In this document: piece after piece, positions 3,073 to 33,562 of the stretch
Position numbering within the stretch: position 1 is the first letter of the stretch
Layout of the letters: each line of letters begins with the position of its first letter
Assembly: GCA_016867035.1 (NCBI GenBank)
Contig: VGKO01000001.1
Coordinates: 1,998 to 65,997 of the forward strand
DNA length: 64,000 bases
Direction: 5' to 3'
From: Candidatus Pacearchaeota archaeon
Lineage (GTDB): Archaea > Nanobdellota > Nanobdellia > Pacearchaeales > GW2011-AR1
Notes under the pieces: model-generated
Told to the model about the DNA's origin: nothing
Databases searched by the model: none
Seen by the model: the letters and a program-made list of their open reading frames with translations, nothing else
Position numbers and translations under genes: made by a program

Positions 3073-3146
3073 GCCCTTATAGTTCAGCCCGGATAGAATA
3101 CGACCTTGCGGAGGTTGTGACCGAGGTTCAAATCCTCGTGGGGGCG
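3073..3146 (+). tRNA. tRNA-Arg (anticodon GCG)
   Basis: Cloverleaf read by eye: acceptor GCCCUUA/UGGGGGC (two G-U pairs), D arm GTTC..GAAT, anticodon stem CGACC/GGTTG with loop TTGCGGA, T arm CGAGG-TTCAAAT-CCTCG, discriminator G. CCA is not encoded. Confidence 0.7.
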
Positions 3147-3165: not shown

Positions 3166-6100
3166 TCAGGAAATCTTAGGTTTATCTAAATTTTGAAGGC
3201 CCTTGCTAAAATCGTCTAAATAGTTTTCTATACTACTTTTAAGAATAATAACATCTTTTATAGAATAAACTGCATCTTGCTTTATCAAGATAAGTTTCTT
3301 TCCTATCTTCTTGCTTATTCTTTTATCAACTCTAATAAGCCAACCATAAATTTTTGGAATCTTATCTTCCAAGTAAATTTCCTCGACTTTTCCAATAAAG
3401 TTGCCATCTTCAGAATAGACTTTTGTGCCAGTTAGACGACTTAATCTATTTTTAGAACCTTTATTGAAAATTCTTCTAACTTCAAAAATTATATTTTTAA
3501 TTAAAGAGTAAACTTTAATTCTCATCTTATAAATAAGAATAATTAATAATAAAATTAAAAGTATTGCTAAATTCTCTCCTTTAGAAGAGATTCCCTTAAC
3601 CCCCCTAAAAATATGGTTGAAAGTATTCCCAAAGATATCCTTTGTTTTGGTTATAACGCTAGAATTATCTTTTAATTCTACATTTTGATTTTTGCTTTCA
3701 TCTTTTATATTTGTGCTAATATCTTCATCACTATCGCATATGCTATTATTGTTCTTATCTAAACAGCATTCGGCCCCATATCTTATATAAGGGGGGTTGC
3801 AAACAATATTATCCTTAATAACATTTCCAAGAAGATTGCTTCCACCAGAACCTCCTGTAGAACCGCTTGATCCTCCCGTGTTATCTGTAACAGAAGAACT
3901 AACCACAAAACTATCATAAGCTGTAGCTGTACCTCCTGCCCAAGAGACTAATCCTCTAAATCTATAATTTCCAGAAGAACTTGGAGAAGTTAAAGTAGCC
4001 GTTAAATAAGAGTTCCCATTAGCAGATACATATATTGTTTGTTGCCCAGAAGTATAATTTGTATTCTCATTTTCATTAGTAATCCAATAATCAATGACAA
4101 AATCTTGCCCTACGTCTGAATTTTTATTCTCAATAGTAATTATTGTATTAAAACTTGTTGAGGCGGTTACAGATGCAGGCGCATTTACAATAGCATCGGC
4201 AGGCCCCCCATATCCGGGAATTCTTACATTGATTTGGTTTGAAGAATAAGTAATAGAATTAACTGTCGCTGTTGCCTTTACGAATAATTTATTTGCATTT
4301 GAAGCCGCTTTATCTATAATAATAGAACTTAAATAAGTATAATTTTGGGTTCTGTTTAGGTTAGTCGTTGTAGTTAATTCTAAATCAGAATCTATTAAAG
4401 TTATATTTGTTAAATCTTCTCCACCGGAATTTACAATTTCTAGAGATATTGTATAATTAACAGAAGTTGAATTTTCAGAATTATAATATGCATTTTTAGT
4501 TAAAGTCAACTGCTGTTCTGTTTCAGCAGCAGGAATAATTAAAATAATCTCAGAAGAATTTGCAGAAACTTGATTTCCAGAGTAAGAATTAGTTGCATTC
4601 ACTCTTGCAATCGCAATGCTAATATTATACGTAGATGAATTTCTCTCATACAACTTAATATAACTTCTAGTAGAGGAAGAATTTGCAGAAATATTTTCTA
4701 AATTGTAAGGAGAATCTGTTGAGTCTGAGTCAGTTAAAATTGTTGAAGTTGCATCACTTAAACCCTTATTTATTACTCTTAAAGTAAAATTATAAATTAT
4801 CGAGGTATTTGTCATATTATGGATACTCAATATTTTATCCAAAACAAAAGAAGCAGGCCCTCCTATGGAAAAAGTATCTTGGCAAGTCTCATTATATCCC
4901 TTATATGTTGAAGTTGCATTTAAAACATAACTTCCCACAGAAAGATTCGCAAAGCTTGTTTCAAATCCACCATCACTTGCAGTTGTTAAATTTTGATTAG
5001 CGTCTAAATTATTATTTGAATCATAGATGCTTAAATTAACAGCATAATTTGGAACAACAACACTTTCATTTAAAATTGTTCCTTGAACCAAGACAAGAGC
5101 CCCTTGTTGATACGAACCTCCGGCTTCACAAGAAATGGAAAAATTAGTCAAGTTAAAATAAAAGAAATAATTTGTAGAATTTGCTTTTCCATCGCTTGCA
5201 ATAACCGTCCAATTATATCTTCCAGAACTTCCTAAACTCCAGTTGTAAGTTACTTGAGTGCCATTTGTGATATTATAAGTTATATTAATCAAAGAATAAG
5301 TTCCATTTGGATATCCCCCATAAAACCAGACAGTGAAATTATCTAAATTGCCATTATTGTCTGAAGCAGTTGCATTAAGCAATATTGATATTCTATTGTT
5401 CAGATGAGAATTGTTTGTAGGATAATTTAAAGTTATGTTAGGGGCAATATTCGATTGTAATATTATTGTTCTATTTGTACTCCAATTTGAATTTCCTAGA
5501 CTATCAAAAGCAAGACAATTCCAAGTATAATTTCCAACCCCCAAGGCTAATGTCCAATTAGTTGAATTAAGTGTTCCAGTTATATTTGTTGTTTTATTAA
5601 GTATAAAATTGCCATTAGAGCTATTAGTTATATATAGGCTGATATTCTTTAAGGCAAAATTATCTGCAGAAGAGCAGTTAAAGGAAACATTAGTTGTCGA
5701 GCTTGTTATTGTAGCAGCATAATTTAAAGCCGGTGAGTTTAAAGTTAAATTTGGAGCAACGTTATCCATGTTAAAACTAATCAAGTTACTTCCTATATTA
5801 TTACTGGTGTCATTGCAATAAACTATCCAATTATTCCAGCCCGATATACTAGTTAATCCGGTAAAATTTTGTCCTGCCGATTGTATCGAATAATTATTTA
5901 TACCAGAATTATTTGAATACCAACAAGCACTCAAGGCAACATCGTCACTAACGCTATAATTAAGTGTAGTTATACTACCATAGCCCGTTCCATTAATAGG
6001 ATAAGTTATGTTTACTACAGGAAGAGTAGAATCTGAAAAGCCTATTGTTATTGTTCTGTTAATCGAAAAATTTGAATTTCCTAAGCTATCCGAGACAAAA

Positions 6101-9100
6101 CAATTCCAAGTATAAGTCCCTATTCCCAAAGTTAAAGTCCAGTTTGTTGTGTTTATTGTTCCATTTATGTTGGTAGTTCTATTAAAGGTAAAATTGCCAT
6201 TAGAATTATTAGTTAGGTATAAACTAATATTTTTCAAAGCCAAATTATCTGCAGAAGAGCAGTTAAAGGAAACATTAACCGAATTTGAAGTTCCCAAACT
6301 ATATGCATCGGACGGCGAATTCAAAGTTACATTTGGTGTAAAAGTATCTTTATAAAATGAAGAAACACCATTTCCAATATTATTAAGACTATCATTACAA
6401 TAAACTGTCCAATTATTCCAGCCCTCATTACTTGTTAATCCGGTCCAGTTTATTCCTGCAGAAAAAATAGATGAATTTGTTTCTGCATTATTAACTGAAT
6501 ACCAACAGGCACTAATATTCTCATTTGAAGAAACACTATAATTCAAAACAGAAATATTGGTTGCATAACTTGTGCCATTTAAAGGATAAACAATACTTAT
6601 AGCCGGATTGGCATTTCTTATAATAATTGTTCTTTGTTCTGTTGAATTTGAAAATCCAATTGAATCAGATGCAAAAAGCTGATAAGAATATGTCCCCAAA
6701 TCTAATCCAGCAGTTGAATTTTTGCTCTGATTTGCATAAAAATACCATTGAGTAGAATTAAATTTTTGCAAATTAGAAACATACTGCTCATAAATTTCTT
6801 CAGCGCTTAAACTTCTATTCCAAATTCTTACTTCATCAATTGAACCGTTAAAATAATAACCGTCGCTTCTCGCCCCAACCCTCAATAATTCGGTGTTGGC
6901 AACTGCATTCGTAGAATAGGCCGTGCTATTATCCAAAACACCATCAATATAAATCCTTAATTGGCTTCCATTATAAGTTACAGCCAAATGGCTCCAATTA
7001 CCTACGGAAAGGTTATTTTTTGATATTATGGTTTCTGCAAGGTCTGTTGACCATCTAAAAGTAATTCTTCCTGTTGTCGCATAATCCATTAATTGATAAC
7101 CTGTACTTGTCGAACCAGGAGTTGCCTTTGTAACATACATCTGATAACTCTTGAGTGAGTTTCTCTTTGCCCATAAAGAAATAGTGCCTCTTGTAGTTAA
7201 ATCTAGAGAATTTGAATCTGCAACACTAATGACGTCGTTGATTCCATCGAAAAAAGCACCCATTCCATATTTTCCAGAGGTGGAGTTTATTACTGCCCCA
7301 CTTAAAGTTCCATTATTTCCATTAATACTTGCATCCTTCACATGAGTTACATTCTCTCCAAGAGAGGAAATATTATCAAAATTATACATCAAAACCAGAG
7401 AGTTTTCATAGAAAGTATAATTTACCCCATTCCAATTATAAATTATATTTGTAAGCCCATGCGACCCTACAATTGAGGTATTTATTTGAATAGATGTATT
7501 TGTTGTACTTGTTCCGTCTATTGGTGTGGGGGATATAAAACTTAATTGAGGATAGTTTCTTGGAGTTGCATTAACAAAAATTGTTCTAGAGGCAAGATTA
7601 TTCAAGGTATCATTTACAGTTATATTTAAATTATATAAACCAACAGCTAAAAGCGTATTATTTTTTAAATATCCTGAACAATTTACATTGAAATTAGTTG
7701 TGTCATTAACCGTATAGCAAGATATTCCAGAAGCATCTGTAGCATTTATCTGATATGTAAATGCATTCCCATATAAAACTGTTTGATTTGTCAAATTGTT
7801 AAAAGTTGGGAAATTACTATCAGAAACATTTACAAAAATAATATTTGAAACTCTATTATTTAGTGTATCATTAATTGTAATATTGATCCAATAAGTCCTA
7901 CCTGCGAGAAGAGTATTATTTTTTAAATATCCTGAACAATTTACATTGAAATTAGTTGTGTCATTTACAGTAAAACAACTTATGTTATTAGAATCTGTAG
8001 CATTTATCTGATACCCCAACCCTAAAACTTCTGTTGTTGTTTGATTTGCGAGATTATTGAACACGGGTAAAATAGTATCCTTAAAGAATCTGTTTATTCT
8101 ACTTCCCAAATTATTATAACTATCATTGCAATAAACACTCCAATTATTCCAGCCTTCATTGCTTGTCAATCCTGTCCAGTTTATTCCTGCTGAAACAATT
8201 GAAGAATTCCAGATTCCTGAAGAATTACTCCACCAACATCCACTAATACTCGAGTTATCCGCAACAGTATAATTTAGAGTTGAAATATTAACAATATAAT
8301 TAGTGTTGTTTGCAGGATAGATTATGTTAATCGCCGGAGCAAGAGAATCTGAAACATTCACCCACATTAAACCAGAAGCAAGGTTATTAGAAGTATCATT
8401 AATTGTTATATTTAAGTTATGTAATCCTACATTAAGCAAAGTTTTATTCGTTAAAATACCAGCACAAGACATTGCAAAATTAGTTGTGTCATTAACCGTA
8501 TAGCAAGAAACCCCAAATGTATCTGATGCGCTTATTGTATGAGATAAAGCCGAGCCGTATTCTATAGACTTATTAGAGAGGTTTGTGAAAGTTGGGGAGA
8601 CTATATCTCTTATTGTAACATTCCATTTTGTAGTTATATTACTTATAGTCATATTAGAAGTCATATTAGCATATACAAAAAAAGTATTAGGAGATAAACT
8701 TGTTCCAGTTGCATTAACAATCCAAGTTATTGTTGAAGTCTGGGCATGGCTCAATGTAACATTATATGGATTTTGTGTTGTTGTATAAAATGGGGTTGCA
8801 CTTGTATTCATGGAAACTAGCCCAGATTTTACTCCCGTGCCGCCCGTATAAGTAAGCCATATTTTTGGAACAAGAGTATATGGAGTTGAAGCCATGCTAT
8901 CAAAAGGCCAAATATAACCAGAGTCACTTTGCCCACCAAGAGATCTCCCGTTAGCCAACCCTGTTACAACATACAAACCACCATTAGAAGTCCAGCCACT
9001 ATTATCCCTTGAGAAGTCTATAATAATATTACTTGTACCATCCCATGTGAAATTATTCGTAAAATTAAATTCGAACAAACGACTTACTGAAAATGAAGAG

Positions 9101-11709
9101 GTTGCTATACTTGTTGGGCCATATGCTGTAGTATTCCAAGAAGTAATTGCACTCGATGTAGTATTTAAGTTTGTATGATTCATTCTTATTCTAAAATTCC
9201 CTAATGCTTGTCCTGGAACTTGAGAAACATTAATATATAATTGTTTAATTACAGAACCCGTTGAAAGCCCTGCTGCCCTTAAATCAGAAGCAAGATAAAC
9301 AGACTGCATTCTTGCATCATGAAAATAAGTATTTAATGGATCTGGATTTGATGACGAGCCCCAACCCAAAGTTGAAGTAGCATTTCCTGCATGAATCTCC
9401 ACCATTGTTCCCCCAGATATAGGATCCAAACTTATATTTATCTCTCCGCAATAACCATCGAAACATGAAACATTAACAGAAATATTAAACAATTCGCTAT
9501 AGTTAGCTCCAATATTTTCAGTAGGATAAACCATCTCGAGTGTAATTCTTGGAATTGAGCTTCTTGTAAGAGATATAACCCGCGAGTTCAGATTATTATA
9601 GCTATCATTTACAGTTATATTAAACGTATAATAATAATCTTCCAAAGCAGTTTTATTTGTCAAGTAACCCGAACAATTAATATTAAAATTTGTTGTATCA
9701 TTAACAGTATAGCAAGATATTTCTGAAAGGTCTGTAGCATTTATCTGATAAGCTAATGAATCATACTGTCCGATTGTTTGGTTTGCTAAGTTATTGAATA
9801 AAGGAGGGGTTGTATCTGAAACATTGACAAATATTTCAGCCGATATAAGATGATTGACAGTGTCATTAACAGTTATGTTTACCCAATATAAACCAATTGC
9901 AAGATTTGTGTTGTTTGTCAAGTAACCTGAACAATTAATATTGTAATTAGTTGTGTCATTAACTGTAAAACAATTAATAGCCCCGTCGTCTGTAGCATTT
10001 ATTTGATAGTTAAATGAAGAACCATATTCCGATGTTTTGTTTTCAATTGCTGTGAAATTAGGATTTAGTACATCTTTATTAAATGTAGCAGACTTACTAC
10101 CTATTGCCCCGGTAGTATCATTGCAATAAACACTCCAATTATTCCAACCGTCATTACTTGTCAATCCTGTCCAGTTTGTTCCTGCTGAAACAATTGAAGA
10201 ATTCCAGATTCCTGAAGAATTACTCCACCAACAACTATCAATCGCATTTGTATCTGTAACAGTATAGTTTAATTCTGTGATATCTAAATAACTCGTCCAA
10301 TTAACAGGGTAAGTTATATTTATTGTAGGCGGAACCAAACCCATACCTATACCCATTCCAACCCCCACTAATGCAGGATAACCATCATTTACATTTGAAC
10401 TGATATCCCAATAATTATTGTTTAAAGTATCATTGTAAGGATTAAAAGCAAAATCCCATGAATTAGATATATTTGTATATGTTGAAACATTTTTCATTTG
10501 TGCGGTTGTTTTTCCTATTCCTCCAGAGGAAGTTGTTTTGCTTGTTGTTTGATTATCCCAGAAGCAATTTGCACAAGCATAATCTTGATAATCGCTAAAC
10601 CCTCCCCCGCCAGAGTCTCCAGAAACTCTTCCAGTGGCATAGCATGCAAAAAGATAAACGTCTTGCATCTCTCCTCCAAAAGCAGCTGTGTAGCCAGAGC
10701 TACCTCCACCAGTAACATTACCTCTTGCAAAGGAGTTATTAATAAAATTCGTTCCTAAATATGCTAAACCGACAAAACCCCCACAACCCCTGCTAACACA
10801 ATAAACATTACCTGTAGCATATGATTCCTTGATTTTTCCATCGTATTCTAAGTCTCCTACAAAACCACCAACACTTTCATATCCGGTAGCATTTCCCGTA
10901 GAATAACATCTAGTTATTGTTCCGGTATTATGAGAGCCTACAAAACCACCGACCGAATCTTGATAACTATAAGATGTTGAGGCCAAGGCAGAGGCAGTAG
11001 AATAAGAATCGAAAACAGAACCCCCGTTACCTCCAATAAAACCCCCGCAGTCATCGCTTGTACCGCAGTTAACACTTCCAGTAGAATAAGAATTATTTAT
11101 ATTACCGCCATGAGAACCGACAAAACCCCCTCCAGAATCCCATGAAGTTACATTTATAATTGAATAAGAATTTTTTATGTATCCCAAGCTTAATCCGGCA
11201 AATCCACCAGTATAACTCTGACCTGCGATTCTGCCACTAACAAAAGAATTTGAAATATTTCCCTTATTGTAACCTATTAACCCTCCAGTATAAGAAGCTC
11301 CACTTATATTTACATTTATCAATCCAAGATTAGAGATATTACTTGATAATTCTGAATACCCTATTAATCCAATATAACTTGTAGAAGTTCTTTTTATGTA
11401 TAAATCCGTAATGTTATAATATTGGCCATTCAAGCTTCCTCTAAAGCTACTTGAAGAAGTTCCAATCGGAGAAAATCCTAATGCAGAGTTCCAAGATGTC
11501 GTTTCAGAACAGTTTATATTATTTGCAAGGCCAAAATTTCCTAATAAGTCTAGGCTCAAGTTTTGAAGCTGAGTACAATTTGTTATTAAACAAGGATCTA
11601 ATGTTGTGTTACCACCCGACATTCCCGCGACGCAACCAGCACTTACAAAGTTTATTGCAAATATAAAAAACAAAATTACAATAGTAAAAACAAGTAGACT
11701 TTTTTTCAT
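3166..11709 (-). CDS. Giant (2847 aa) cell-surface protein: signal peptide, Gly-rich GGF(V/I)G repeats, many Ig-like repeats, LamG/ConA-like lectin domain, one C-terminal TM helix, cytoplasmic PRC-barrel-like tail
   Basis: There is an uninterrupted 8.5-kb ORF. The N-terminus 'MKKSLLVFTIVILFFIFAINFVSA' looks like a signal peptide. Repeated modules contain 'CYTVNDTTNFN(I/V)NCSGYL' and 'CWWSNSSGIWNSSIVSAG.NWTGLTSN.GWNNW'. 'SIDEVRIWNRSLSAEEI' is typical of LamG_3 domains. 'LAILLILLLIILIY' is a TM helix near the C-terminus. The tail 'GTKVYSEDGNFIGKVEEIYLED...WLIRVDKR' resembles PRC-barrel domains. N-x-S/T sequons are very dense throughout. Confidence 0.8.
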   Translation of the reverse strand: MKKSLLVFTIVILFFIFAINFVSAGCVAGMSGGNTTLDPCLITNCTQLQNLSLDLLGNFGLANNINCSETTSWNSALGFSPIGTSSSSFRGSLNGQYYNITDLYIKRTSTSYIGLIGYSELSSNISNLGLINVNISGASYTGGLIGYNKGNISNSFVSGRIAGQSYTGGFAGLSLGYIKNSYSIINVTSWDSGGGFVGSHGGNINNSYSTGSVNCGTSDDCGGFIGGNGGSVFDSYSTASALASTSYSYQDSVGGFVGSHNTGTITRCYSTGNATGYESVGGFVGDLEYDGKIKESYATGNVYCVSRGCGGFVGLAYLGTNFINNSFARGNVTGGGSSGYTAAFGGEMQDVYLFACYATGRVSGDSGGGGFSDYQDYACANCFWDNQTTSKTTSSGGIGKTTAQMKNVSTYTNISNSWDFAFNPYNDTLNNNYWDISSNVNDGYPALVGVGMGIGMGLVPPTINITYPVNWTSYLDITELNYTVTDTNAIDSCWWSNSSGIWNSSIVSAGTNWTGLTSNDGWNNWSVYCNDTTGAIGSKSATFNKDVLNPNFTAIENKTSEYGSSFNYQINATDDGAINCFTVNDTTNYNINCSGYLTNNTNLAIGLYWVNITVNDTVNHLISAEIFVNVSDTTPPLFNNLANQTIGQYDSLAYQINATDLSEISCYTVNDTTNFNINCSGYLTNKTALEDYYYTFNITVNDSYNNLNSRVISLTRSSIPRITLEMVYPTENIGANYSELFNISVNVSCFDGYCGEINISLDPISGGTMVEIHAGNATSTLGWGSSSNPDPLNTYFHDARMQSVYLASDLRAAGLSTGSVIKQLYINVSQVPGQALGNFRIRMNHTNLNTTSSAITSWNTTAYGPTSIATSSFSVSRLFEFNFTNNFTWDGTSNIIIDFSRDNSGWTSNGGLYVVTGLANGRSLGGQSDSGYIWPFDSMASTPYTLVPKIWLTYTGGTGVKSGLVSMNTSATPFYTTTQNPYNVTLSHAQTSTITWIVNATGTSLSPNTFFVYANMTSNMTISNITTKWNVTIRDIVSPTFTNLSNKSIEYGSALSHTISASDTFGVSCYTVNDTTNFAMSCAGILTNKTLLNVGLHNLNITINDTSNNLASGLMWVNVSDSLAPAINIIYPANNTNYIVNISTLNYTVADNSSISGCWWSNSSGIWNSSIVSAGINWTGLTSNEGWNNWSVYCNDSYNNLGSRINRFFKDTILPVFNNLANQTTTEVLGLGYQINATDSNNISCFTVNDTTNFNVNCSGYLKNNTLLAGRTYWINITINDTLNNRVSNIIFVNVSDSNFPTFNNLTNQTVLYGNAFTYQINATDASGISCYTVNDTTNFNVNCSGYLKNNTLLAVGLYNLNITVNDTLNNLASRTIFVNATPRNYPQLSFISPTPIDGTSTTNTSIQINTSIVGSHGLTNIIYNWNGVNYTFYENSLVLMYNFDNISSLGENVTHVKDASINGNNGTLSGAVINSTSGKYGMGAFFDGINDVISVADSNSLDLTTRGTISLWAKRNSLKSYQMYVTKATPGSTSTGYQLMDYATTGRITFRWSTDLAETIISKNNLSVGNWSHLAVTYNGSQLRIYIDGVLDNSTAYSTNAVANTELLRVGARSDGYYFNGSIDEVRIWNRSLSAEEIYEQYVSNLQKFNSTQWYFYANQSKNSTAGLDLGTYSYQLFASDSIGFSNSTEQRTIIIRNANPAISIVYPLNGTSYATNISVLNYSVSSNENISACWYSVNNAETNSSIFSAGINWTGLTSNEGWNNWTVYCNDSLNNIGNGVSSFYKDTFTPNVTLNSPSDAYSLGTSNSVNVSFNCSSADNLALKNISLYLTNNSNGNFTFNRTTNINGTINTTNWTLTLGIGTYTWNCFVSDSLGNSNFSINRTITIGFSDSTLPVVNITYPINGTGYGSITTLNYSVSDDVALSACWYSNNSGINNYSIQSAGQNFTGLTSISGWNNWIVYCNDTSNNIGSNLISFNMDNVAPNLTLNSPALNYAATITSSTTNVSFNCSSADNFALKNISLYITNSSNGNFILNKTTNITGTLNSTNWTLALGVGNYTWNCLAFDSLGNSNWSTNRTIILQSNIAPNITLNYPTNNSHLNNRISILLNATASDNNGNLDNFTVWFYGGYPNGTYSLINITYNITNGTQVTYNWSLGSSGRYNWTVIASDGKANSTNYFFYFNLTNFSISCEAGGSYQQGALVLVQGTILNESVVVPNYAVNLSIYDSNNNLDANQNLTTASDGGFETSFANLSVGSYVLNATSTYKGYNETCQDTFSIGGPASFVLDKILSIHNMTNTSIIYNFTLRVINKGLSDATSTILTDSDSTDSPYNLENISANSSSTRSYIKLYERNSSTYNISIAIARVNATNSYSGNQVSANSSEIILIIPAAETEQQLTLTKNAYYNSENSTSVNYTISLEIVNSGGEDLTNITLIDSDLELTTTTNLNRTQNYTYLSSIIIDKAASNANKLFVKATATVNSITYSSNQINVRIPGYGGPADAIVNAPASVTASTSFNTIITIENKNSDVGQDFVIDYWITNENENTNYTSGQQTIYVSANGNSYLTATLTSPSSSGNYRFRGLVSWAGGTATAYDSFVVSSSVTDNTGGSSGSTGGSGGSNLLGNVIKDNIVCNPPYIRYGAECCLDKNNNSICDSDEDISTNIKDESKNQNVELKDNSSVITKTKDIFGNTFNHIFRGVKGISSKGENLAILLILLLIILIYKMRIKVYSLIKNIIFEVRRIFNKGSKNRLSRLTGTKVYSEDGNFIGKVEEIYLEDKIPKIYGWLIRVDKRISKKIGKKLILIKQDAVYSIKDVIILKSSIENYLDDFSKGLQNLDKPKIS

Positions 11710-17431: not shown

Positions 17432-18316
17432 TTATAACATCGCAAGCAAGATTAAGAGAAGAATAGCAAATAGAAAAGCCGGAGTAAAAGGAATACCATA
17501 TTTTATTTCAACCTTCTTGTTTTTTCCAAATCTTTTAGTAATTATTTTAAGTTCTTCTTCACTTAAACCTTCCCAATTAGGCTTTATTATTTTTTTTCCA
17601 ATCTTTACTTTAGTAGTTAACCAGTCTCCAATAGTTAAGTTAGAAACCGGGGGAAATTTAGTTAAGCAAGATTCCTCTATAGCCTTAGCAGCCAATAATA
17701 AAATAGGCAAAATAATCATCACCCCTGCTAAAATCATACCAATTGCTAGATTAAATAAAAAGAATACTCCAAAAACAATTGCAAAGAACAAGATAGAAGA
17801 TAGTGTCTGAATCTTATACTTAGAGAAAGAAATTATAAAACTTTTCTTAAACTTCCCCAGATGTAAAAACATTAAAGTTAAACTATAAATCAAGCCATAA
17901 ATACTTCCGGCCAGTATAAAGAAAAAAATAAACAAGCAAAATATCCAAATATTTTGATTAAAATTATTTGTTAAAGGTAAAAAAGCGCCAAGGGCTATTA
18001 AGAGTTTAGCATCCCCGCCGGCGAAAACCCTAGCATAATAAAAAATATTAGCCAATATAAAACCAACAACCACTCCAATCAAACCCCAAACAAAAAAACC
18101 CCAGTTAGCTAGTTCAATAGATAAAAAGAACCTATAAGCCAAAATAAAGACAATTAGACTAAAGTTCCACCAATTAGCAACCTCTCTCTTCCTAAAATCC
18201 TGGATAACAGCAATTAAAACCCAAAACAAAACCCCTATGATTAAAAACCAATTATAACTTGTTAATATCTCTTTAAGGTTGAGATTGAATAAGAATTGCA
18301 TAAAAAATAAGTCCAT
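17432..18316 (-). CDS. Type IV prepilin/preflagellin peptidase (A24 family; PibD/FlaK-like)
   Basis: It is a polytopic membrane protein. 'IQDFRKREVANWW' matches the first catalytic-Asp motif and 'FAGGDAKLLIALGAF' matches the GGD(V/A)KL second-Asp motif. It sits at the end of the pilin gene array. Confidence 0.7.
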   Translation of the reverse strand: MDLFFMQFLFNLNLKEILTSYNWFLIIGVLFWVLIAVIQDFRKREVANWWNFSLIVFILAYRFFLSIELANWGFFVWGLIGVVVGFILANIFYYARVFAGGDAKLLIALGAFLPLTNNFNQNIWIFCLFIFFFILAGSIYGLIYSLTLMFLHLGKFKKSFIISFSKYKIQTLSSILFFAIVFGVFFLFNLAIGMILAGVMIILPILLLAAKAIEESCLTKFPPVSNLTIGDWLTTKVKIGKKIIKPNWEGLSEEELKIITKRFGKNKKVEIKYGIPFTPAFLFAILLLILLAML

Positions 18317-18522
18317 TAGATATAAATTATTAATTATTATTTCCAGAGTTTATTTGATTAACCTCAGATGTTCTAAACTTACCGCCATGCTTATAAGGAA
18401 AAAGTTTACGTCTTTTTTTCTTGTCCTTACCTTTATTTCTTCTTTCACTACCTGAAGAATAAAAATCATCACCCATTATAAGAATAGGAAAAAAGGGTTT
18501 AAAAGTTTAATTAAAATTGAAT

Positions 18523-19041
18523 TTATTCTGTTCCTGTTTCTTCAATATTAGCAACTGTCTTTTCACAGCAAACCTCAGTCTTTACATCATGCATTTCTGA
18601 ATTTTGTATTTGAGAAGTAAAATCTTTTGCGGTTCCGCATCCAGGGTTCTTTGACTTCCAGTCACAGTTAAGGACACCATCATCTTTTAATGAAGTTTCA
18701 GCACAATCCACATTTGGACAACTTTCAAGTCCTGCCTCGCCCACATTAGTTCTCAGAGTAGAACAACTTCCTCTAAAAGAACGCTTATCGTCTAAATTAA
18801 TTGTTCTTGATTTTCCACAGAACTCATAAACCTGACTAGTAGAACATGCCGCAGTACAAGCATTTTTAATAGTATCTACATTTGTACCTGAACCAAAGAA
18901 ATTTTTAATATTATCCATCAAACTTCCGCCGCTTCTAGTAAAACTAAATATTAAGAAAACCAATACAACAATAGCAATAATAATTACAATTATTGTACCA
19001 ACACTCATTTCCTGAGCTTTTTTATTCAATAAGTTTCTCAT
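18523..19041 (-). CDS. Pilin-like protein with class III (type IV pilin) signal peptide; Cys-rich C-terminal domain
   Basis: '...NKKAQEMSVGTIIVIIIAIVVLVFLIF' is a KKA|Q processing-site-like motif followed by a hydrophobic stretch. There are 12 or more Cys C-terminally. Confidence 0.6.
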   Translation of the reverse strand: MRNLLNKKAQEMSVGTIIVIIIAIVVLVFLIFSFTRSGGSLMDNIKNFFGSGTNVDTIKNACTAACSTSQVYEFCGKSRTINLDDKRSFRGSCSTLRTNVGEAGLESCPNVDCAETSLKDDGVLNCDWKSKNPGCGTAKDFTSQIQNSEMHDVKTEVCCEKTVANIEETGTE

Positions 19042-19078
19042 GTTCCTCTTTGTATCTAACCATATATGTTTCTGGGGT

Positions 19079-19555
19079 TTAAAAATCTATCTCAAAAACA
19101 ACGTCTGTGTTAAAATTAACCGCCTCTATTCCGAAATCCTTATTGGCATCTATAACCTTACTAATCCTAAATCCAGAAAGATAAAAATATAGTTTATTTC
19201 CCTCAACTTTTGATTTAGCATAATTTCCTTCTTGTACTTGAAGATTATATTCTTCTAATTCTTTAATTCCTTCGGCTTGATTTGAGAATTCTTGCTTGAA
19301 CTGAACTATAAAGTCTGAAGTCCCAAATTTTGCCCCTTGATTTTCTGTTAAAACTTTTTCTGCAACAGCCCTCATGGTGAATTCAATCCCTTGTTGTTCT
19401 GAATAAATATGCAACAACTCTGAAGAACCCTGTATCTTCTCTTGATTACTAGCTTTCGAAGTCATAAACATAAATAAGGCAAAACCTACGAGTAAAACAG
19501 TCATTATGACTAAAATTGTAATTGCAATATCTCCTTTCTTTCTTTTAAACATCAT
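19079..19555 (-). CDS. Pilin-like protein with class III signal peptide
   Basis: 'MMFKRKKGDIAITILVIMTVLLVGFALFMF'. The start overlaps the upstream gene's stop by 4 bp. Confidence 0.6.
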   Translation of the reverse strand: MMFKRKKGDIAITILVIMTVLLVGFALFMFMTSKASNQEKIQGSSELLHIYSEQQGIEFTMRAVAEKVLTENQGAKFGTSDFIVQFKQEFSNQAEGIKELEEYNLQVQEGNYAKSKVEGNKLYFYLSGFRISKVIDANKDFGIEAVNFNTDVVFEIDF

Positions 19556-20157
19556 GTTATTGAAGTCCCCCTTGCAGCTCTTTCAGCAGCCTTGTCTAAT
19601 GCCGACTCTGTTAAGCTTTTTTGAACATAACCCTCACAATCAACCAGACCTAGTTTTATTTTAATAAATTTATCCTCGCTTGGATAAAAAAAGACTATGC
19701 TATTTGGAGACAGACATTTGGATTGTATTGTAGGGTCTGCTTCTTTATTAAAAATGGATTTATCATTGATAGAAACCGAATGAAAAACAAAGTTAGAACC
19801 TTTGAATATCTCTTGATTCAACGAAGCGATAAAGCTTCCTAGTTCAGAATAAGATACTTCGCCTTTTACATAACTTAAAATTTCTTGTTTAAGAGAGGTT
19901 TGTCTTTCTTTAAATAAAATTATTTGATTAAAATTTGAAAAAGCAGCAGAGGTAGTTGCTTCCACTAAAAGACTTGAAGACCTTTCAGTTTTACCAAAGA
20001 GTCCAGAAACACTTGAAACTGCTTTTCTTGGGGCAGCCATCCCAACAGAAAAGCTTACAAATAGAAAAATAATAAAAAATATAATAATAAAACCCACCAC
20101 CCAAGTAAGAGTAGAGGGAGTTTGTGCCTTTCTAAGTTTTATTTTATTTGATTTCAT
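19552..20157 (-). CDS. Pilin-like protein with class III signal peptide
   Basis: 'KLRKAQTPSTLTWVVGFIIIFFIIFLFV'. Confidence 0.55.
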   Translation of the reverse strand: MKSNKIKLRKAQTPSTLTWVVGFIIIFFIIFLFVSFSVGMAAPRKAVSSVSGLFGKTERSSSLLVEATTSAAFSNFNQIILFKERQTSLKQEILSYVKGEVSYSELGSFIASLNQEIFKGSNFVFHSVSINDKSIFNKEADPTIQSKCLSPNSIVFFYPSEDKFIKIKLGLVDCEGYVQKSLTESALDKAAERAARGTSIT

Positions 20158-20159
20158 TT

Positions 20160-20642
20160 TTATTTTTTAACAAATTTATAGTTTGAACCCGTAGTCATTT
20201 CAATGTTAACTTTTTCACCCAAATAAGACGAAGAAATCTTTTTTTGAGTACAAAGAGGATAGGCCTTAGCATTTAATTGTGAAGCAAATAAACAATCCTC
20301 TTCAAAAGCACGATTACCGAAGACTAAATTTTTAGAATTAACTCCACTAATAGAGAGTTTTATATAAAAGAAGCCAGAATTTTCGATTAGATTTCTATTT
20401 AAATCACAGGTATCAAAAAAATTAAAGTCTTCTGAAAATACGCTAGGATTAACTTGGCCATTATTTATTAAACAATCAACTACTTTATTTGTAATAATTT
20501 CAGACTGTAAAACCCGAATATCAATGTCGCTAGCATAAAATATTGAAGTCCCTGCAATCATTCCTGCCCCAATAACTGCAAGTACCAAAAACCACCAAAC
20601 AGACAATAAATTACCCTTTCTTCCAATTTTTTTAGATAGCAT
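20160..20642 (-). CDS. Pilin-like protein with class III signal peptide
   Basis: 'KIGRKGNLLSVWWFLVLAVIGAGMIAG'. Confidence 0.55.
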   Translation of the reverse strand: MLSKKIGRKGNLLSVWWFLVLAVIGAGMIAGTSIFYASDIDIRVLQSEIITNKVVDCLINNGQVNPSVFSEDFNFFDTCDLNRNLIENSGFFYIKLSISGVNSKNLVFGNRAFEEDCLFASQLNAKAYPLCTQKKISSSYLGEKVNIEMTTGSNYKFVKK

Positions 20643-20643
20643 T

Positions 20644-21054
20644 TTAAACTTTTTTTAGAACAAGAACCTCCTGATTCTCTTGAGATTTATCTACATAGTA
20701 ACTAAAAGACTTTGAAGAAGATAAAAATTGAAAATTATATCCCCCTGATCCAAGTACCTGAATGTGAATTGTGTTGGTATTACTATCTATAGAAATAACT
20801 TGCCCACTATATCTATTTTTTTCTGCGAAATCATATAACTTTGTTAGAGAAAAATTAGCTTCTGTACCTGGTTTCATTGAATCTATTAAGATAGCAACTG
20901 TTTTAGCACTTGTTTCTTCTAAAACAGCAGCACCGGTGCTAGCCCGAACAATAAAAAACATAATTGCAAGTAAAAAAATCAGATTTAGAATAAGAAAAAT
21001 TAATTGTTTGGAGATTATTTCATCCCCTTTTTTATTTTTAATAAAGTTTTTCAT
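20644..21054 (-). CDS. Pilin-like protein with class III signal peptide
   Basis: 'KNKKGDEIISKQLIFLILNLIFLLAIMFFIV'. Confidence 0.55.
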   Translation of the reverse strand: MKNFIKNKKGDEIISKQLIFLILNLIFLLAIMFFIVRASTGAAVLEETSAKTVAILIDSMKPGTEANFSLTKLYDFAEKNRYSGQVISIDSNTNTIHIQVLGSGGYNFQFLSSSKSFSYYVDKSQENQEVLVLKKV

Positions 21055-21060
21055 CTTAAA

Positions 21061-22149
21061 TTAGGGGATACTCTCTATATTAGAACAATATTTCGCAATC
21101 TCACTAACATTATAATCTACGCTTCTTACAACTGAACAACCCTCATAGGTATCGTCGCCAATTTTAGAATCCCCACAATAACTAGCGGTTATCTGCCTAT
21201 TATAAGCTACATTTGACTGTTGTAACCCTATTCCAACTGCAGCAGATATAAGCGCTACCAATGGATTTTTAAAAAGCCCAGAAGCTAATTGTTTAGTCCA
21301 AGTAGGAGCTAATACTCTACTTGCTCCATATCCTCCTAAAAGAGCAGTTGCGCTATTTTTAAGACTGGTGCCGTATTGTGGAGCAGATATCTGCATAAAA
21401 ACTATTGCAGACTCTTTATTAAATGCAGAATAATCTGAAACCGGTTCTTTTAAGTCTTCAGGTTTTATAGAGGAGCCTTCTGACTTAAGAGTATTTCCAT
21501 CTTTTTGATAATTAAAATCTCCGAAAGAGATATCTGAATTTAATGAATCCTTAAAGTTATATAATCCTCCAGCGCCAGAAATATATTCCATATAAGTTTT
21601 CTCCTCGCCAGGAACCTTATGCGTTATCATATAACTGCCAACATCAATTTTTGAGAAATCAAATTCAGGTTCTTTTATTCTAGATTTATCAAAGGCTATC
21701 CTTGTACAGATAATGCAACTTGGAGAAACGGTTCCGAATCCAAAATTTTTAGCTAGAGTTTGGGAGAACAAATTTAATTTGCCTTCGCCCATGGTGCTCC
21801 AGCAATCCAAAATTTCTTGTGCGTAAATTTGTTCTATCTGTTCTTCATTTCTAACCCTCACTCGAGTTATACCTTTTTCACCAATAAAATCTGCGCACTC
21901 TCCCCCCAGTAATCCTGAAGTAATACAAATTTTATTAGTTTTACATTTTAAAGGAAGAAACCCCTGAGTCGATTCAGGAATAGTAGCTCTGAATATTACC
22001 GATTGATGACAAACTTCCCTATCCATTGCACCAGTTCCACCAAGGTTATAGAAAAAAATAAGAACCATCATGAATCCAAGAACAAGAAGCACGATAGTTA
22101 CTATCCAAGCTATCGTTATTTCCCCTTTTCTTTTTTTATCCTTTCCCAT
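21061..22149 (-). CDS. Large pilin-like / pilus-associated protein with class III signal peptide (362 aa)
   Basis: 'KKRKGEITIAWIVTIVLLVLGFMMVLIFF' is followed by a Cys-containing globular region. Confidence 0.55.
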   Translation of the reverse strand: MGKDKKRKGEITIAWIVTIVLLVLGFMMVLIFFYNLGGTGAMDREVCHQSVIFRATIPESTQGFLPLKCKTNKICITSGLLGGECADFIGEKGITRVRVRNEEQIEQIYAQEILDCWSTMGEGKLNLFSQTLAKNFGFGTVSPSCIICTRIAFDKSRIKEPEFDFSKIDVGSYMITHKVPGEEKTYMEYISGAGGLYNFKDSLNSDISFGDFNYQKDGNTLKSEGSSIKPEDLKEPVSDYSAFNKESAIVFMQISAPQYGTSLKNSATALLGGYGASRVLAPTWTKQLASGLFKNPLVALISAAVGIGLQQSNVAYNRQITASYCGDSKIGDDTYEGCSVVRSVDYNVSEIAKYCSNIESIP

Positions 22150-22344
22150 TTTAAATAATCAAAAGATTTCAACATTAAAAATCTATGCAGTGAGATTATC
22201 AACTAGTAATTTAACCCCAAAAGCAAGTATGGCAAAAAGAGCAATTCTTAATAGCCATAAAAAAAAGTGGCTTCCTGGATTTTCCTCGCCTTTTTTATTT
22301 TTAAAAAGATTTACCATTGTATTAAGAGTTGTATTAGGATTTAT

Positions 22345-23223: not shown

Positions 23224-23224
23224 T

Positions 23225-24121: not shown

Positions 24122-24290
24122 TTTAGTGTAACCTCAAAAAATTTCTTATAAATTCTAGTAACGATGTTCCGTGGTTTTTTGCGGCTATATAAGCAAATAC
24201 TAAAATAGCAAGAGCAATTGCCCCGATTATCCAATAACCAAGGACTTTTAGTTCCATAGCTTTTTTATTTCTAAAAAAACTTAGCATGAC

Positions 24291-24623
24291 TTAACAAGCA
24301 CCAGTGCAAACCAATTTATTTATACTAGAACCCCAAGATTTCTCACTAGCTAAAGAACAAGTTAACTCTAATTTCTCAGATTTGGATAGCTTGACAGTCC
24401 TATTAACACAACAAAATTCATATTTTCGTTCTTGCTCTCCAAGAGTATCACATTGGCTTACAACTGAATCAACATTACTTGAAGTAAAAAATGAATCCAT
24501 CTTCTCACCAAAACTACCAGAAGAGCGATTAAACAATAGCACAAGAGCAACAAGTACAATTATTGCTAAAACAATTAAAATAATAGTATTCAAAGCCAAC
24601 TCCACTCCCTTTTTACCTTTCAT
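24291..24623 (-). CDS. Pilin-like protein with class III signal peptide (110 aa)
   Basis: 'MKGKKGVELALNTIILIVLAIIVLVALVLLF'. A C-terminal 'YEFCC...C...C' motif is shared with 18523..19041. Confidence 0.6.
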   Translation of the reverse strand: MKGKKGVELALNTIILIVLAIIVLVALVLLFNRSSGSFGEKMDSFFTSSNVDSVVSQCDTLGEQERKYEFCCVNRTVKLSKSEKLELTCSLASEKSWGSSINKLVCTGAC

Positions 24624-24762
24624 AAATTCCTCAAGAAACCCAATTATTTAAAGGTTATTAATGGAAGTAATAATAAGCCCCCTTTCTCTTCTTAACCCAA
24701 TTGTAGAATAAACCCCAAAATAAAAGATTAAAACAAAAAAGTTAATTAAAAACTAATAAAAA

Positions 24763-25074: not shown

Positions 25075-25119
25075 AACAACTATTTAAGGATTTCTATATA
25101 AACAAAAACAATGTGTGAT

Positions 25120-32979: not shown

Positions 32980-33045
32980 TTTTCTTTTTATACCTTCAAT
33001 TATTTTAAAACTTAAGTCTTTATATATCTTTTGTTATCTAATCAA

Positions 33046-33549: not shown

Positions 33550-33562
33550 TTTTTATTTGAAT

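What the first reader, a model, noticed from the sequence alone, without database searches (positions are those of the whole stretch)
3166..3480. Cytoplasmic PRC-barrel tail on the giant surface protein
After the single TM helix, the last ~100 residues ('LTGTKVYSEDGNFIGKVEEIYLEDKIPKIYGWLIRVDKRISKKIGKKLILIKQDAVYSIKDVII') match the PRC-barrel pattern. The same pattern is seen in two stand-alone PRC-barrel genes in this window (33563..33874 and 59216..59476). PRC-barrel proteins have been implicated in archaeal cell division and FtsZ/SepF tethering. A PRC barrel as the intracellular tail of an adhesin would physically couple the surface protein to a cytoplasmic partner. I am not aware of this architecture being described.
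Basis: partly seen in the sequence, partly recalled or inferred. Interest (0 to 1): 0.55.

Follow-up and report, generated by a model that had tools for sequence, protein, structure and literature searches.

The report
Cytoplasmic PRC-barrel tail on archaeal surface proteins
A 2,847-residue surface glycoprotein of a tiny DPANN archaeon (Candidatus Pacearchaeota) ends, just inside the membrane, in a small barrel domain related to archaeal cell-division proteins, and the same membrane-anchor-plus-barrel cassette recurs on about a hundred otherwise unrelated surface proteins, which suggests an undescribed way of tying surface proteins to something inside the cell.

Summary
The last ~115 residues of the 2,847-aa ORF (window 3166..11709, minus strand) follow its only internal hydrophobic helix and contain a PRC barrel: Pfam PF05239 scores 31.5 bits against a cut-off of 21.2. 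An AlphaFold2 model (pLDDT 91.7) superposes best on A. fulgidus CdpB1/CdpB2 (rmsd 1.9 Å over 70 residues). Both stand-alone PRC genes are also real.

The fusion is not a one-off. An exhaustive search found 118 relatives (50%-identity clusters). In nearly all of them the barrel is the extreme C-terminus. 100 of 118 have a TM helix about 20 residues upstream. Where a source or record names an organism it is Pacearchaeota, Woesearchaeota or "Nanoarchaeota". The ectodomains are unrelated (LamG, beta-helix/NosD, MAM, propeller). Complete 110-170-aa "TM + PRC" mini-proteins also exist.

Family-wide asymmetries in charge, sequons and Cys place the barrel in the cytoplasm, as does an odd TM count in most members. 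DeepTMHMM could not be run.

The function is inferred. I think the tail is a membrane-tethered CdpB1-like barrel that oligomerises or pairs with soluble PRC proteins under the membrane.

I found no paper describing this architecture, although database pipelines already label relatives as PRC-barrel proteins. I rate it a new variant of a known kind, of moderate interest.

The parts
3166..11709 (-). Giant ORF of 2,847 aa. It equals NCBI MBM3246922.1, 'hypothetical protein FJZ17_00045 [Candidatus Pacearchaeota archaeon]'. Predicted type I membrane glycoprotein.
11635..11709 (-). N-terminal signal-like segment, aa 1-25 (MKKSLLVFTIVILFFIFAINFVSAG)
   Evidence: Kyte-Doolittle peak at aa 4-22, score 2.78
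3574..11634 (-). Ectodomain, aa 26-2712. It contains GLUG motifs (aa ~137-310), a Laminin_G_3 domain (aa 1489-1639, window 6793..7245), Ig-like repeats, 185 N-X-S/T sequons and 41 Cys, and is only 1.9% Lys.
3733..3801 (-). Membrane-proximal extracellular Cys motif CNPPYIRYGAECCLDKNNNSICD (aa 2637-2659). The same motif recurs 140-310 residues from the C-terminus in 26 of 74 long relatives.
3517..3573 (-). The single transmembrane helix, aa 2713-2731 (hydrophobic core LAILLILLLIILIY)
   Evidence: Kyte-Doolittle peak 2.32. It is part of the continuous helix aa 2711-2750 in the AF2 model.
3454..3516 (-). Basic juxtamembrane helix, aa 2732-2752 (KVYSLIKNIIFEVRRIFNKGS)
   Evidence: AF2 helix covering model residues 2-41; positive-inside statistics
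3235..3447 (-). PRC barrel, aa 2755-2825, of the CdpB1-like type
   Evidence: Pfam PF05239; AF2 strands at model residues 54-114; Foldseek best hits 8onw/8qzo; tail profile scores 30.4 bits on A. fulgidus CdpB1 and 15.8 bits on CdpB2
3187..3234 (-). Short C-terminal helix after the barrel, aa 2826-2841 (SIENYLDDFSKGLQNL). In relatives the consensus is 'V.EHLEKL'.
   Evidence: AF2 helix at model residues 117-132; family consensus
33563..33874 (-). Stand-alone soluble PRC-barrel gene (103 aa, net acidic). It is the closest paralogue of the tail in the window and is CdpB1-like. I propose it as a candidate partner; this is inferred, not tested.
   Evidence: Pfam 23.7 bits; tail-family HMM 35-54 bits; 41.9 bits to A. 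fulgidus CdpB1; pairwise scores; charge
59216..59476 (+). Second stand-alone PRC-barrel gene (86 aa, net acidic), more distant from the tail
   Evidence: Pfam 36.7 bits; tail HMM 19 bits; matches CdpB1 and CdpB2 about equally

Best explanation
The giant ORF encodes a type I membrane glycoprotein of a Candidatus Pacearchaeota (DPANN) archaeon. Its ~2,690-residue, heavily sequon-bearing, lectin/Ig-like ectodomain is outside the cell. One helix crosses the membrane, and the last ~115 residues lie in the cytoplasm. Those residues are a basic juxtamembrane helix, a CdpB1-like PRC barrel and a short C-terminal helix.

This 'TM + PRC barrel' unit is a portable, strongly conserved cassette. It has been attached to many unrelated ectodomains in the lineages that sources label Pacearchaeota, Woesearchaeota or Nanoarchaeota. 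It also exists alone as 110-170-aa bitopic mini-proteins.

Proposed mechanism (inferred): the cassette is a membrane-tethered PRC barrel. Like the soluble CdpB1/CdpB2, MTH1859 and CdvA barrels, it would self-associate or pair with the cell's soluble PRC-barrel proteins directly under the membrane. The acidic CdpB1-like gene at 33563..33874 is the obvious candidate partner. That association would hold, cluster or position the surface proteins from the inside.

What is shown: the domain identity, the fold, the recurrence of the cassette, and (by indirect evidence) the topology. What is inferred: oligomerisation, the identity of any partner, and any link to SepF/FtsZ.
For: Domain and fold:
- Pfam PRC scores 31.5 bits against a cut-off of 21.2.
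- The AF2 model has pLDDT 91.7.
- The best structural matches are A. fulgidus CdpB1/CdpB2, at rmsd 1.9 A over 70 residues and probability 1.0.
- The tail profile scores 30.4 bits on CdpB1 and 15.8 bits on CdpB2.

Recurrence:
- Exhaustive phmmer of the tail against 1.84 billion representatives gave 119 hits with E<=1e-3, including the query itself. Nearly all matches lie at the extreme C-terminus; the match ends a median of 5 aa from the end. Protein lengths range from 75 to 2,847 aa.
- 100 of 118 relatives have a hydrophobic helix within 90 aa upstream of the barrel, with a median gap of 20 aa.
- 43 of 62 long members that start with Met have a signal-like N-terminus.
- Of 40 full-length members, 33 hit Pfam PRC. 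Their ectodomains differ: Laminin_G_3 in 6, Beta_helix/NosD in 6, DUF2341 in 2, MG2 in 2, MAM in 1, beta-propeller in 1.
- Intact fused ORFs occur in contigs from several separate assemblies, some of them the same gene re-assembled. Three are named as Pacearchaeota or Woesearchaeota MAGs.
- A complete small form, 120 aa of TM + PRC, sits as its own gene in L004.

Topology:
- Sequons: 4.58 per 100 aa in ectodomains and 0.40 in tails.
- Cys: 1.16 and 0.30 per 100 aa.
- Net charge: -3.3 and +12.5 per 100 aa (all three).
- K+R flanking the TM: 2.7 outside and 5.5 inside, p=3e-12.
- Hydrophobic segments counted in the last 330 aa: 1 in 86 members and 3 in 11 members. Seven members count 2; four of these are small proteins and two look like one split segment.
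- The tail's Lys content (15.8%) matches the window's cytoplasmic proteins (6-15%) and not the ectodomain (1.9%).

Oligomerisation precedent:
- CdpB1 and CdpB2 form homo- and heterodimers and alternating filaments through strands beta3/beta4 and beta1-alpha1. MTH1859 forms an analogous filament, and AlphaFold2 predicts one for YlmC. CdpB1 binds SepF (preprint 10.1101/2023.03.28.534543).
- The most conserved tail segments (RL..G.KVY, IGKVKEVYLE, KIYGWLIK) map to the same structural elements.
- Tails are strongly basic, while both soluble PRC proteins in the window are acidic at -1.9 and -3.5 per 100 aa. This allows electrostatic complementarity.
- The tail is closer to the window's own CdpB1-like gene (alignment score 99) than to A. 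fulgidus CdpB1 (82). That fits an origin by duplication and fusion of the lineage's own CdpB1-like gene.
Against: - No interaction was tested. The window has no FtsZ gene, and no SepF was seen among the ORFs I scanned.
- The conserved strands are also the core of the fold, so their conservation does not prove an interface.
- Topology rests on hydropathy and composition statistics, not on a trained predictor or an experiment. For the window protein alone, the 15 residues on each side of the TM carry equal K+R (3 and 3).
- No conserved gene neighbour was found around tail-bearing genes, and each of the 16 loci has only one copy. Genomic context therefore gives no hint of a partner.
- The basic surface could bind anionic lipids rather than a protein.
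- 18 of 118 relatives lack a detectable upstream TM. Many look like fragments or soluble paralogues.
Confidence: 0.55

Rival explanations
1. Passive anchor. The PRC barrel is a compact, basic cytoplasmic 'stopper' that sits on the inner leaflet. It stabilises the type I anchoring of very large ectodomains against being pulled out, and has no specific protein partner.
For: Tails are strongly basic, at +12.5 net charge per 100 aa, and begin about 20 residues after the TM. This is compatible with binding anionic lipids. No conserved neighbouring gene was found. Archaeal surface proteins are commonly held by a C-terminal TM segment (general knowledge).
Against: A plain TM segment plus a few basic residues is enough for anchoring in other archaeal surface proteins. 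Here an ~80-residue fold is kept at 40-55% identity across proteins whose ectodomains are unrelated. The cassette also exists without any ectodomain, as complete 110-170-aa proteins, where there is nothing to anchor. Every characterised close relative of the fold works through protein-protein contacts.
Confidence: 0.22
2. Sorting or targeting tag. The cassette is recognised in the cytoplasm by an insertion, secretion or localisation machinery, for example one linked to the type-IV-pilus-like apparatus. It would direct these proteins to a particular site or pathway rather than forming a structural link.
For: It behaves like a shared C-terminal module on many different cargo ectodomains. The window has a type-IV-pilus-like locus 6 kb away. 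In L004 a small TM-PRC gene lies next to a gene whose product has an N-terminus (MEKRGLSPIIATVLLVS...) that I judge by eye to resemble a type IV pilin signal.
Against: The proteins already have ordinary N-terminal signal-like segments. Known archaeal C-terminal sorting signals (PGF-CTERM and similar) sit at the very end of the protein and are removed. Here 115 folded residues follow the TM, and NCBIfam finds no sorting-signal model. The pilus proximity is seen in only two places and may be chance.
Confidence: 0.1
3. RNA or ribosome binding. The tail acts like the RimM PRC domain, tethering ribosomes or RNA at the membrane, for example for co-translational insertion of the giant protein.
For: PRC barrels occur in RimM. 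A RimM structure is among the weaker fold hits (2dyi, E=1e-3). Archaeal PRC genes often neighbour translation genes (preprint 10.1101/2023.03.28.534520). The tail is Lys-rich.
Against: The tail is the last part of the protein to be translated, so it cannot guide its own co-translational insertion. The best sequence and structure matches are the CdpB1/2 type, not RimM. Pfam PRC_RimM and NCBIfam RimM do not hit the tail. Lys richness is typical of this low-GC proteome.
Confidence: 0.03
4. Artefact. The fusion comes from a misassembly or frameshift that joined a small PRC gene to a surface-protein gene, or the PRC resemblance is a chance match.
For: There is an in-frame Met (KMRIK...) right after the TM core, and small stand-alone TM-PRC genes do exist.
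Against: The ORF is uninterrupted. The same fused layout is found in about 100 clusters and in contigs from several separate assemblies and sampling projects. Pfam, the AF2 model and Foldseek agree on the fold at high confidence.
Confidence: 0.01

Closest known systems
CdpB1/CdpB2/CdpB3, the archaeal cell-division PRC-barrel proteins (Haloferax volcanii; A. fulgidus structures 8onw and 8qzo)
   Same: Same fold, and the best sequence and structure matches (rmsd 1.9 A, 26% identity; 30.4 bits to CdpB1). The lineage also encodes soluble CdpB-like proteins in the same window.
   Different: CdpB proteins are ~10 kDa soluble proteins consisting only of the barrel. They reach the membrane indirectly through SepF. 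Here the barrel is covalently tethered by its own TM helix, is strongly basic instead of acidic, carries an extra conserved C-terminal helix, and is the tail of large extracellular proteins. No division role, SepF binding or filament formation was shown for it.
Photosynthetic reaction-centre H subunit (founding member of the PRC-barrel domain)
   Same: One TM helix with the PRC barrel on the cytoplasmic side. Found among the fold hits (E about 7e-5 to 1e-3).
   Different: In the H subunit the TM helix is N-terminal with almost nothing outside the cell. The protein belongs to a bacterial photosynthetic complex. Similarity is lower (12-22% identity, TM-score normalised to the target 0.22-0.25). 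Here the helix follows a ~2,700-residue ectodomain in an archaeon.
CdvA (crenarchaeal division protein: PRC barrel plus coiled coil, recruits ESCRT-III to the membrane)
   Same: A PRC barrel used next to the membrane as an assembly platform. Found among the fold hits (9s9g, E=1.4e-4).
   Different: CdvA has no TM helix or ectodomain, and it has a coiled-coil and ESCRT-III-binding region that is absent here. The superposition is poor (rmsd about 12 A over 107 columns).
Archaeal surface and S-layer glycoproteins held by a C-terminal TM segment or a PGF-CTERM/archaeosortase signal
   Same: N-terminal signal, a large ectodomain rich in N-glycosylation sequons, and a hydrophobic segment near the C-terminus.
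   Different: Those anchors end within a few residues of the TM, or are cleaved and replaced by a lipid. Here a folded 115-residue cytoplasmic domain follows, and no sorting-signal model matches.
Eukaryotic adhesion receptors with cytoskeleton-binding cytoplasmic tails, such as integrins and cadherins (functional analogy only, from general knowledge)
   Same: Large adhesive ectodomain, a single TM helix, and a conserved cytoplasmic tail that could connect to an intracellular scaffold.
   Different: There is no homology, and the intracellular link here is hypothetical.

Membership tests
PRC-barrel domain (Pfam PF05239) | Sequence match to the family profile above the curated gathering score | tested here: met
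   31.5 bits for the isolated tail and 25.0 bits in the full protein, against a cut-off of 21.2. 33 of 40 full-length relatives also match.
PRC-barrel domain (Pfam PF05239) | All-beta, strongly bent six-stranded sheet (barrel) fold | tested here: met
   The AF2 model has pLDDT 91.7 with six strands. Foldseek top hits are all PRC barrels at probability 1.0.
CdpB1/2/3 cell-division proteins | Closest sequence and structure relatives are CdpB proteins | tested here: met
   8onw/8qzo are the best fold hits. The tail profile scores 30.4 bits on CdpB1 and 15.8 bits on CdpB2.
CdpB1/2/3 cell-division proteins | Small soluble protein consisting entirely of the PRC barrel | tested here: not met
   The barrel is the C-terminal 3% of a 2,847-aa membrane protein and is preceded by a TM helix.
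CdpB1/2/3 cell-division proteins | Homo- and heterodimerisation and filament formation through beta3/beta4 | not testable with these tools
No multimer predictor is available.
CdpB1/2/3 cell-division proteins | Binding to SepF and localisation at the division ring | not testable with these tools
   No FtsZ signature in the window and no SepF hit among the ORFs scanned with Pfam. This needs the full genome and experiments.
Reaction-centre H subunit | N-terminal TM helix followed directly by a cytoplasmic PRC-containing domain, as part of a photosynthetic reaction centre | tested here: not met
   The membrane side of the barrel is the same, but the TM helix is near the C-terminus after a huge ectodomain. 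Fold hits are weak (TM-score to target 0.22-0.25). No photosynthesis gene appeared among the scanned ORFs of this archaeal window.
CdvA | PRC barrel followed by a coiled coil and an ESCRT-III-binding C-terminus | tested here: not met
   Only a 16-residue helix follows the barrel. The superposition on CdvA has rmsd about 12 A.
YlmC/YmxH sporulation protein (the name JGI gives to some relatives) | Match to TIGR02888 above its cut-off | tested here: not met
   NCBIfam gives no hit for the C-terminal 344 aa. Only the stand-alone gene at 59216..59476 hits, at 24.4 bits, below the cut-off of 44.2.
Archaeal C-terminal sorting signals (PGF-CTERM and related) | Short motif, TM segment and a few basic residues at the extreme C-terminus | tested here: not met
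   115 residues, including a folded domain, follow the TM. No NCBIfam sorting-domain model matches.

The most novel reading that the evidence does not exclude
The TM-PRC cassette is an archaeal counterpart of an adhesion-receptor tail. Under this reading the tethered CdpB1-like barrel would co-assemble with the soluble CdpB-like proteins, and through them with SepF/FtsZ. Giant adhesins of these episymbiotic DPANN cells would then be mechanically and spatially coupled to the division or cytoskeletal apparatus. That coupling could place adhesins at the division plane or the host-contact site, or let host attachment feed back on the cell cycle.
Probability: 0.2. Interest if true: 0.8.

Novelty: new variant of a known kind. 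Interest (0 to 1): 0.55.

Why it matters
PRC-barrel proteins were tied to archaeal cell division only in 2023-24, and only as small soluble proteins. A clade of the same barrel that is hard-wired to the membrane and fused to the inside end of many different surface proteins has two implications. It would extend the domain's role from organising the division ring to connecting the outside of the cell with the inside. It would also give a concrete, testable handle on how ultra-small, host-dependent DPANN archaea, which cannot be manipulated genetically, organise their adhesins.

The cassette is short (~135 aa) and self-contained, so it can be expressed, purified, or fused to reporters in Haloferax. 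Practically, these proteins are now labelled 'hypothetical', 'YlmC sporulation protein' or only by the ectodomain. A dedicated family model would correct that.

Tried and rejected
Searches and jobs that led nowhere:
- The word-index homology search with the tail returned nothing. With a 58-sequence profile it returned only 4 proteins. The exhaustive search was what revealed the family.
- An exact look-up of the giant protein in the gene-position index found no record, although the cluster table does hold it.
- The search for related loci with the diverse alignment A2 failed because it had no conserved stretch. The tighter alignment A3 worked but used a narrow pattern, so only 3 genome loci and 9 metagenome loci came back. 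Per-genome copy number could not be measured.
- The afdb50 fold library was unavailable.
- A viral-contig scan found no relative.
- NCBIfam has no model for the cassette.
- A search for conserved neighbours found none. Contexts differ between loci: GerE-like HTH, type I restriction enzyme, pilin-like gene, RadA/tRNA-Arg.
- I looked for FtsZ and SepF in the window as candidate partners. There is no tubulin signature. The two genes downstream of the CdpB1-like gene are small polytopic membrane paralogues, not SepF.

Ideas considered and rejected:
- Fusion artefact: rejected because of the recurrence.
- C-terminal sorting signal: rejected because 115 folded residues follow the TM.
- RimM-like RNA role: rejected because the best matches are CdpB-type.
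- An outside-facing tail: rejected on the charge, sequon, Cys and TM-count evidence.
Full report
**1. The observation**

The window is archaeal. It encodes aIF2-alpha, RadA, EF-1-beta and Orc1/Cdc6, and GC is about 32%. The ORF at 3166..11709 on the minus strand encodes 2,847 aa. It is identical to NCBI MBM3246922.1, 'hypothetical protein FJZ17_00045 [Candidatus Pacearchaeota archaeon]'.

A Kyte-Doolittle scan finds only two hydrophobic segments. One is aa 4-22, which looks like a signal peptide. The other is aa 2713-2731.

The residues after that second helix match Pfam PRC (PF05239) at 31.5 bits, E=1.8e-7, against a cut-off of 21.2. The match covers aa 2755-2825.

An AlphaFold2 model of the last 138 residues, built with 58 homologous tails, has mean pLDDT 91.7. 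It shows:
- a continuous helix at aa 2711-2750 (the TM plus a juxtamembrane stretch)
- a six-stranded barrel at aa 2763-2823
- a short helix at aa 2826-2841

Foldseek against the PDB returns PRC barrels. The best are A. fulgidus CdpB1/CdpB2 (8onw, 8qzo; E=2e-6, rmsd 1.9 A over 70 columns, 26% identity). MTH1859, reaction-centre H subunits, CdvA and RimM follow.

**2. The fusion is a recurrent cassette**

A word-index search with the tail found nothing. An exhaustive phmmer search against 1.84 billion representative proteins found 119 hits at E<=1e-3, 43 of them at E<=1e-10. The query itself is among them at 100% identity.

In almost every hit the match is the extreme C-terminus, ending a median of 5 aa from the end. 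Protein lengths run from 75 to 2,847 aa, and many are 400-2,600 aa.

Of the 118 relatives:
- 100 have a hydrophobic helix within 90 aa upstream of the barrel, with a median gap of 20 aa.
- 43 of the 62 long members that start with Met have a signal-like N-terminus.

The tails are well conserved, at 28-42% identity to the window tail over the whole cassette and 44-54% over the barrel. The consensus is RL....G.KVY...G..IGKVKEVYLE....KIYGWLIK.DKKIAKKI.KK.ILVKHK.V.SI..IMIID..V.EHLEKL.

The ectodomains are unrelated. Among 40 full-length members Pfam finds PRC in 33, Laminin_G_3 in 6, Beta_helix/NosD in 6, DUF2341 in 2, MG2 in 2, and MAM and a beta-propeller in 1 each.

About 23 members have fewer than 60 residues before the TM. 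At least one of these small forms (P0064, 120 aa) is a complete, separately called gene inside its contig. So 'TM + PRC' also exists as an autonomous bitopic protein.

Intact fused ORFs were recovered from contigs of several separate assemblies, some carrying the same gene. Three are named Candidatus Pacearchaeota or Woesearchaeota. The rest are low-GC metagenome contigs. Source names for other members are Pacearchaeota or 'Nanoarchaeota'.

Each locus carries one copy. The window has only one tail-bearing gene. No relative was found on viral contigs.

**3. Topology**

No trained predictor was available, so I used independent indirect tests.

*Window protein:*
- All 185 N-X-S/T sequons are in the ectodomain, against 87 expected from composition. 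None is in the tail.
- The ectodomain has 41 Cys and the tail has none.
- Net charge is -69 for the ectodomain and +10 for the tail.
- The giant ORF has 6.5 sequons per 100 aa, against 0.9 or fewer in every other long reading frame (>=300 aa) of the window.
- Lys is 1.9% of the ectodomain and 15.8% of the tail. The window's cytoplasmic proteins range from 6 to 15% Lys.

*Family:*

| Measure | Ectodomain side | Tail side |
|---|---|---|
| Sequons per 100 aa | 4.58 | 0.40 |
| Cys per 100 aa | 1.16 | 0.30 |
| Net charge per 100 aa | -3.3 | +12.5 |
| K+R in the 15 residues flanking the TM | 2.7 | 5.5 |

The K+R difference holds in 72 of 90 members (Wilcoxon p=3e-12).

A hydropathy scan counted hydrophobic segments in the last 330 aa of each relative. 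86 members have one and 11 have three. Seven score two. Four of these are small proteins, at least one with an obvious N-terminal signal segment, two look like a single split segment, and one is unclear. An odd count is what a cytoplasmic barrel behind an extracellular domain requires.

One caveat applies. For the window protein alone, the 15 residues on each side of the TM carry equal K+R (3 and 3). The local positive-inside signal is therefore carried by the longer tail and by the family, not by those flanks.

**4. Relationship to known PRC proteins**

- A profile of the tails scores 30.4 bits on A. fulgidus CdpB1 and 15.8 bits on CdpB2.
- The stand-alone gene 33563..33874 scores 41.9 bits on CdpB1 and does not hit CdpB2.
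- The gene at 59216..59476 hits both about equally.
- The tail-family HMMs score 35-54 bits on the 33563..33874 product and only 19 bits on the other.
- In pairwise alignments the tail is closest to the window's own CdpB1-like protein (score 99), then to A. fulgidus CdpB1 (82).

The simplest history is that the cassette arose in this lineage from a CdpB1-like gene that acquired a TM helix and was then joined to many ectodomains.

The tails are strongly basic. Both soluble PRC proteins of the window are acidic, at -1.9 and -3.5 per 100 aa.

**5. Mechanism**

*What is known.* CdpB1 binds SepF and CdpB2. CdpB1 and CdpB2 form homo- and heterodimers and alternating filaments through strands beta3/beta4 and the beta1-alpha1 element. 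MTH1859 forms an analogous filament, and AlphaFold2 predicts one for YlmC (preprint 10.1101/2023.03.28.534543). CdpB1-3 localise at mid-cell and are needed for normal division (preprint 10.1101/2023.03.28.534520).

*What I infer.* A CdpB1-like barrel held about 20 residues from the inner face of the membrane most plausibly does what its relatives do. It would associate with itself or with the soluble PRC proteins, so that the surface proteins are held, clustered or positioned from the inside. The most conserved tail segments fall on the same structural elements as the CdpB dimer interface. They are also the core of the fold, so this is only compatible evidence.

No FtsZ signature is present in the window. 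The ORFs I scanned with Pfam gave no SepF hit, and a few small ORFs were not scanned. The genes next to the CdpB1-like gene are two small polytopic membrane paralogues, not SepF.

*My confidence, by layer:*
- about 0.9 that this is a cytoplasmic PRC barrel belonging to a recurrent cassette
- about 0.4-0.5 that it works by PRC-PRC association
- about 0.2 that it links to the SepF/FtsZ division machinery

*Rivals:*
- A passive, lipid-binding stopper (0.22). The high conservation and the ectodomain-less mini-proteins argue against it.
- A cytoplasmic sorting or localisation tag (0.10).
- RimM-like RNA or ribosome binding (0.03).
- An artefact (0.01), excluded by the recurrence.

**6. Comparison with the literature and novelty**

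Two surveys of archaeal PRC proteins report mostly PRC-only proteins. One says 93% contain only PRC domains and a few carry a zinc ribbon. The other mentions duplicated barrels and the CdvA coiled-coil fusion. A term search of the latter finds no occurrence of 'transmembrane', and the passages I read in the former mention no TM or surface-protein fusion.

Full-text searches combining PRC-barrel with transmembrane and DPANN, and Pacearchaeota with surface or giant proteins, found no description of this architecture. The library does not cover all journals, so this is absence of evidence.

Annotation pipelines do see the domain. Relatives are named 'PRC-barrel domain-containing protein', 'sporulation protein YlmC with PRC-barrel domain' or 'LamG-like jellyroll fold domain-containing protein'. 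NCBIfam has no model for the cassette.

A TM helix followed by a cytoplasmic PRC barrel is also the layout of the reaction-centre H subunit. The new element is therefore not the membrane tethering itself. It is a CdpB1-like barrel used as the conserved intracellular tail of diverse, often giant, archaeal surface proteins. I rate this a new variant of a known kind.

**7. Verdict**

Interest is 0.55: a real, testable lead for archaeal cell biology, with its function still inferred.

Noticed in passing
window 3733..3801 (aa 2637-2659 of the giant ORF); relatives P0002-P0104: An extracellular four-Cys motif, CN.PYIRYG.ECCLD.NNN.ICD, lies 54 residues before the TM helix. It recurs almost unchanged, 140-310 residues from the C-terminus, in 26 of 74 long relatives. 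In a subset the conserved C-terminal cassette therefore extends outside the membrane. This could be a disulfide knot or a metal site.
   Followed up: partly
relatives P0006, P0017, P0026, P0052, P0086, P0089, P0094, P0106, P0108, P0112, P0117: A variant of the cassette has three hydrophobic helices instead of one. The layout is ectodomain, TM1, a ~60-aa Lys/Arg-rich stretch, TM2, a short loop, TM3 and then the PRC barrel. The segment count stays odd.
   Followed up: partly
L004 583..1442 (NCBI JBDROP010000060.1, 'Nanoarchaeota archaeon'): A complete 120-aa 'TM + PRC' mini-protein (P0064) lies directly downstream of a 143-aa gene. That gene's N-terminus (MEKRGLSPIIATVLLVSLGLVIAV) looks by eye like an archaeal type IV pilin (class III) signal.
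   Followed up: no
window 17432..29868 (-): A type-IV-pilus-like locus. It comprises a Peptidase_A24 prepilin peptidase (17432..18316), a run of small ORFs without Pfam hits that are candidate pilins (18523..24121), a 720-aa polytopic membrane protein (25120..27282) and a T2SSE-family ATPase (27583..29868).
   Followed up: partly
window 32494..33874 (-): The CdpB1-like stand-alone PRC gene (33563..33874) is followed on the same strand by two small polytopic membrane proteins. They are 167 and 161 aa, have no Pfam family, and are paralogues of each other (28% identity, E=2e-8). The three genes may form an operon.
   Followed up: partly
window 58461..59215: The most AT-rich stretch of the window (GC 0.263 for 58-60 kb) lies between orc1/cdc6 (57222..58460, -) and the second stand-alone PRC gene (59216..59476, +). 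It is a plausible replication origin. A repeat scan showed only AT-rich inverted repeats and no clear ORB-like boxes.
   Followed up: partly
window 3073..3146 (+): A tRNA-Arg (GCG) gene converges on the giant ORF. Its 3' end lies 19 nt from the ORF's stop codon.
   Followed up: no
window 3574..11634 (-), giant ectodomain: The ectodomain contains internal repeated modules. GWNNW.VYCND occurs at aa 521, 1186, 1763 and 1957. C[YF]TVNDTTN[FY] occurs at aa 580, 666, 1069, 1245 and 1331. FNCSSADN occurs at aa 1815 and 2010. GGF.G (GLUG-like) occurs seven times in aa 142-310. The signal-like segment ends in ...VSAGC, which resembles a lipobox but does not fit it.
   Followed up: no
window 40149..43181 (-) and 52014..55526 (-): Two large cytoplasmic ORFs remain uncharacterised. 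The 1,010-aa one has only a weak N-terminal LexA_DNA_bind hit. The 1,170-aa one was not scanned. Nearby, a Peptidase_C39-like protein (45791..46330) sits next to an M16 peptidase (44460..45662).
   Followed up: no
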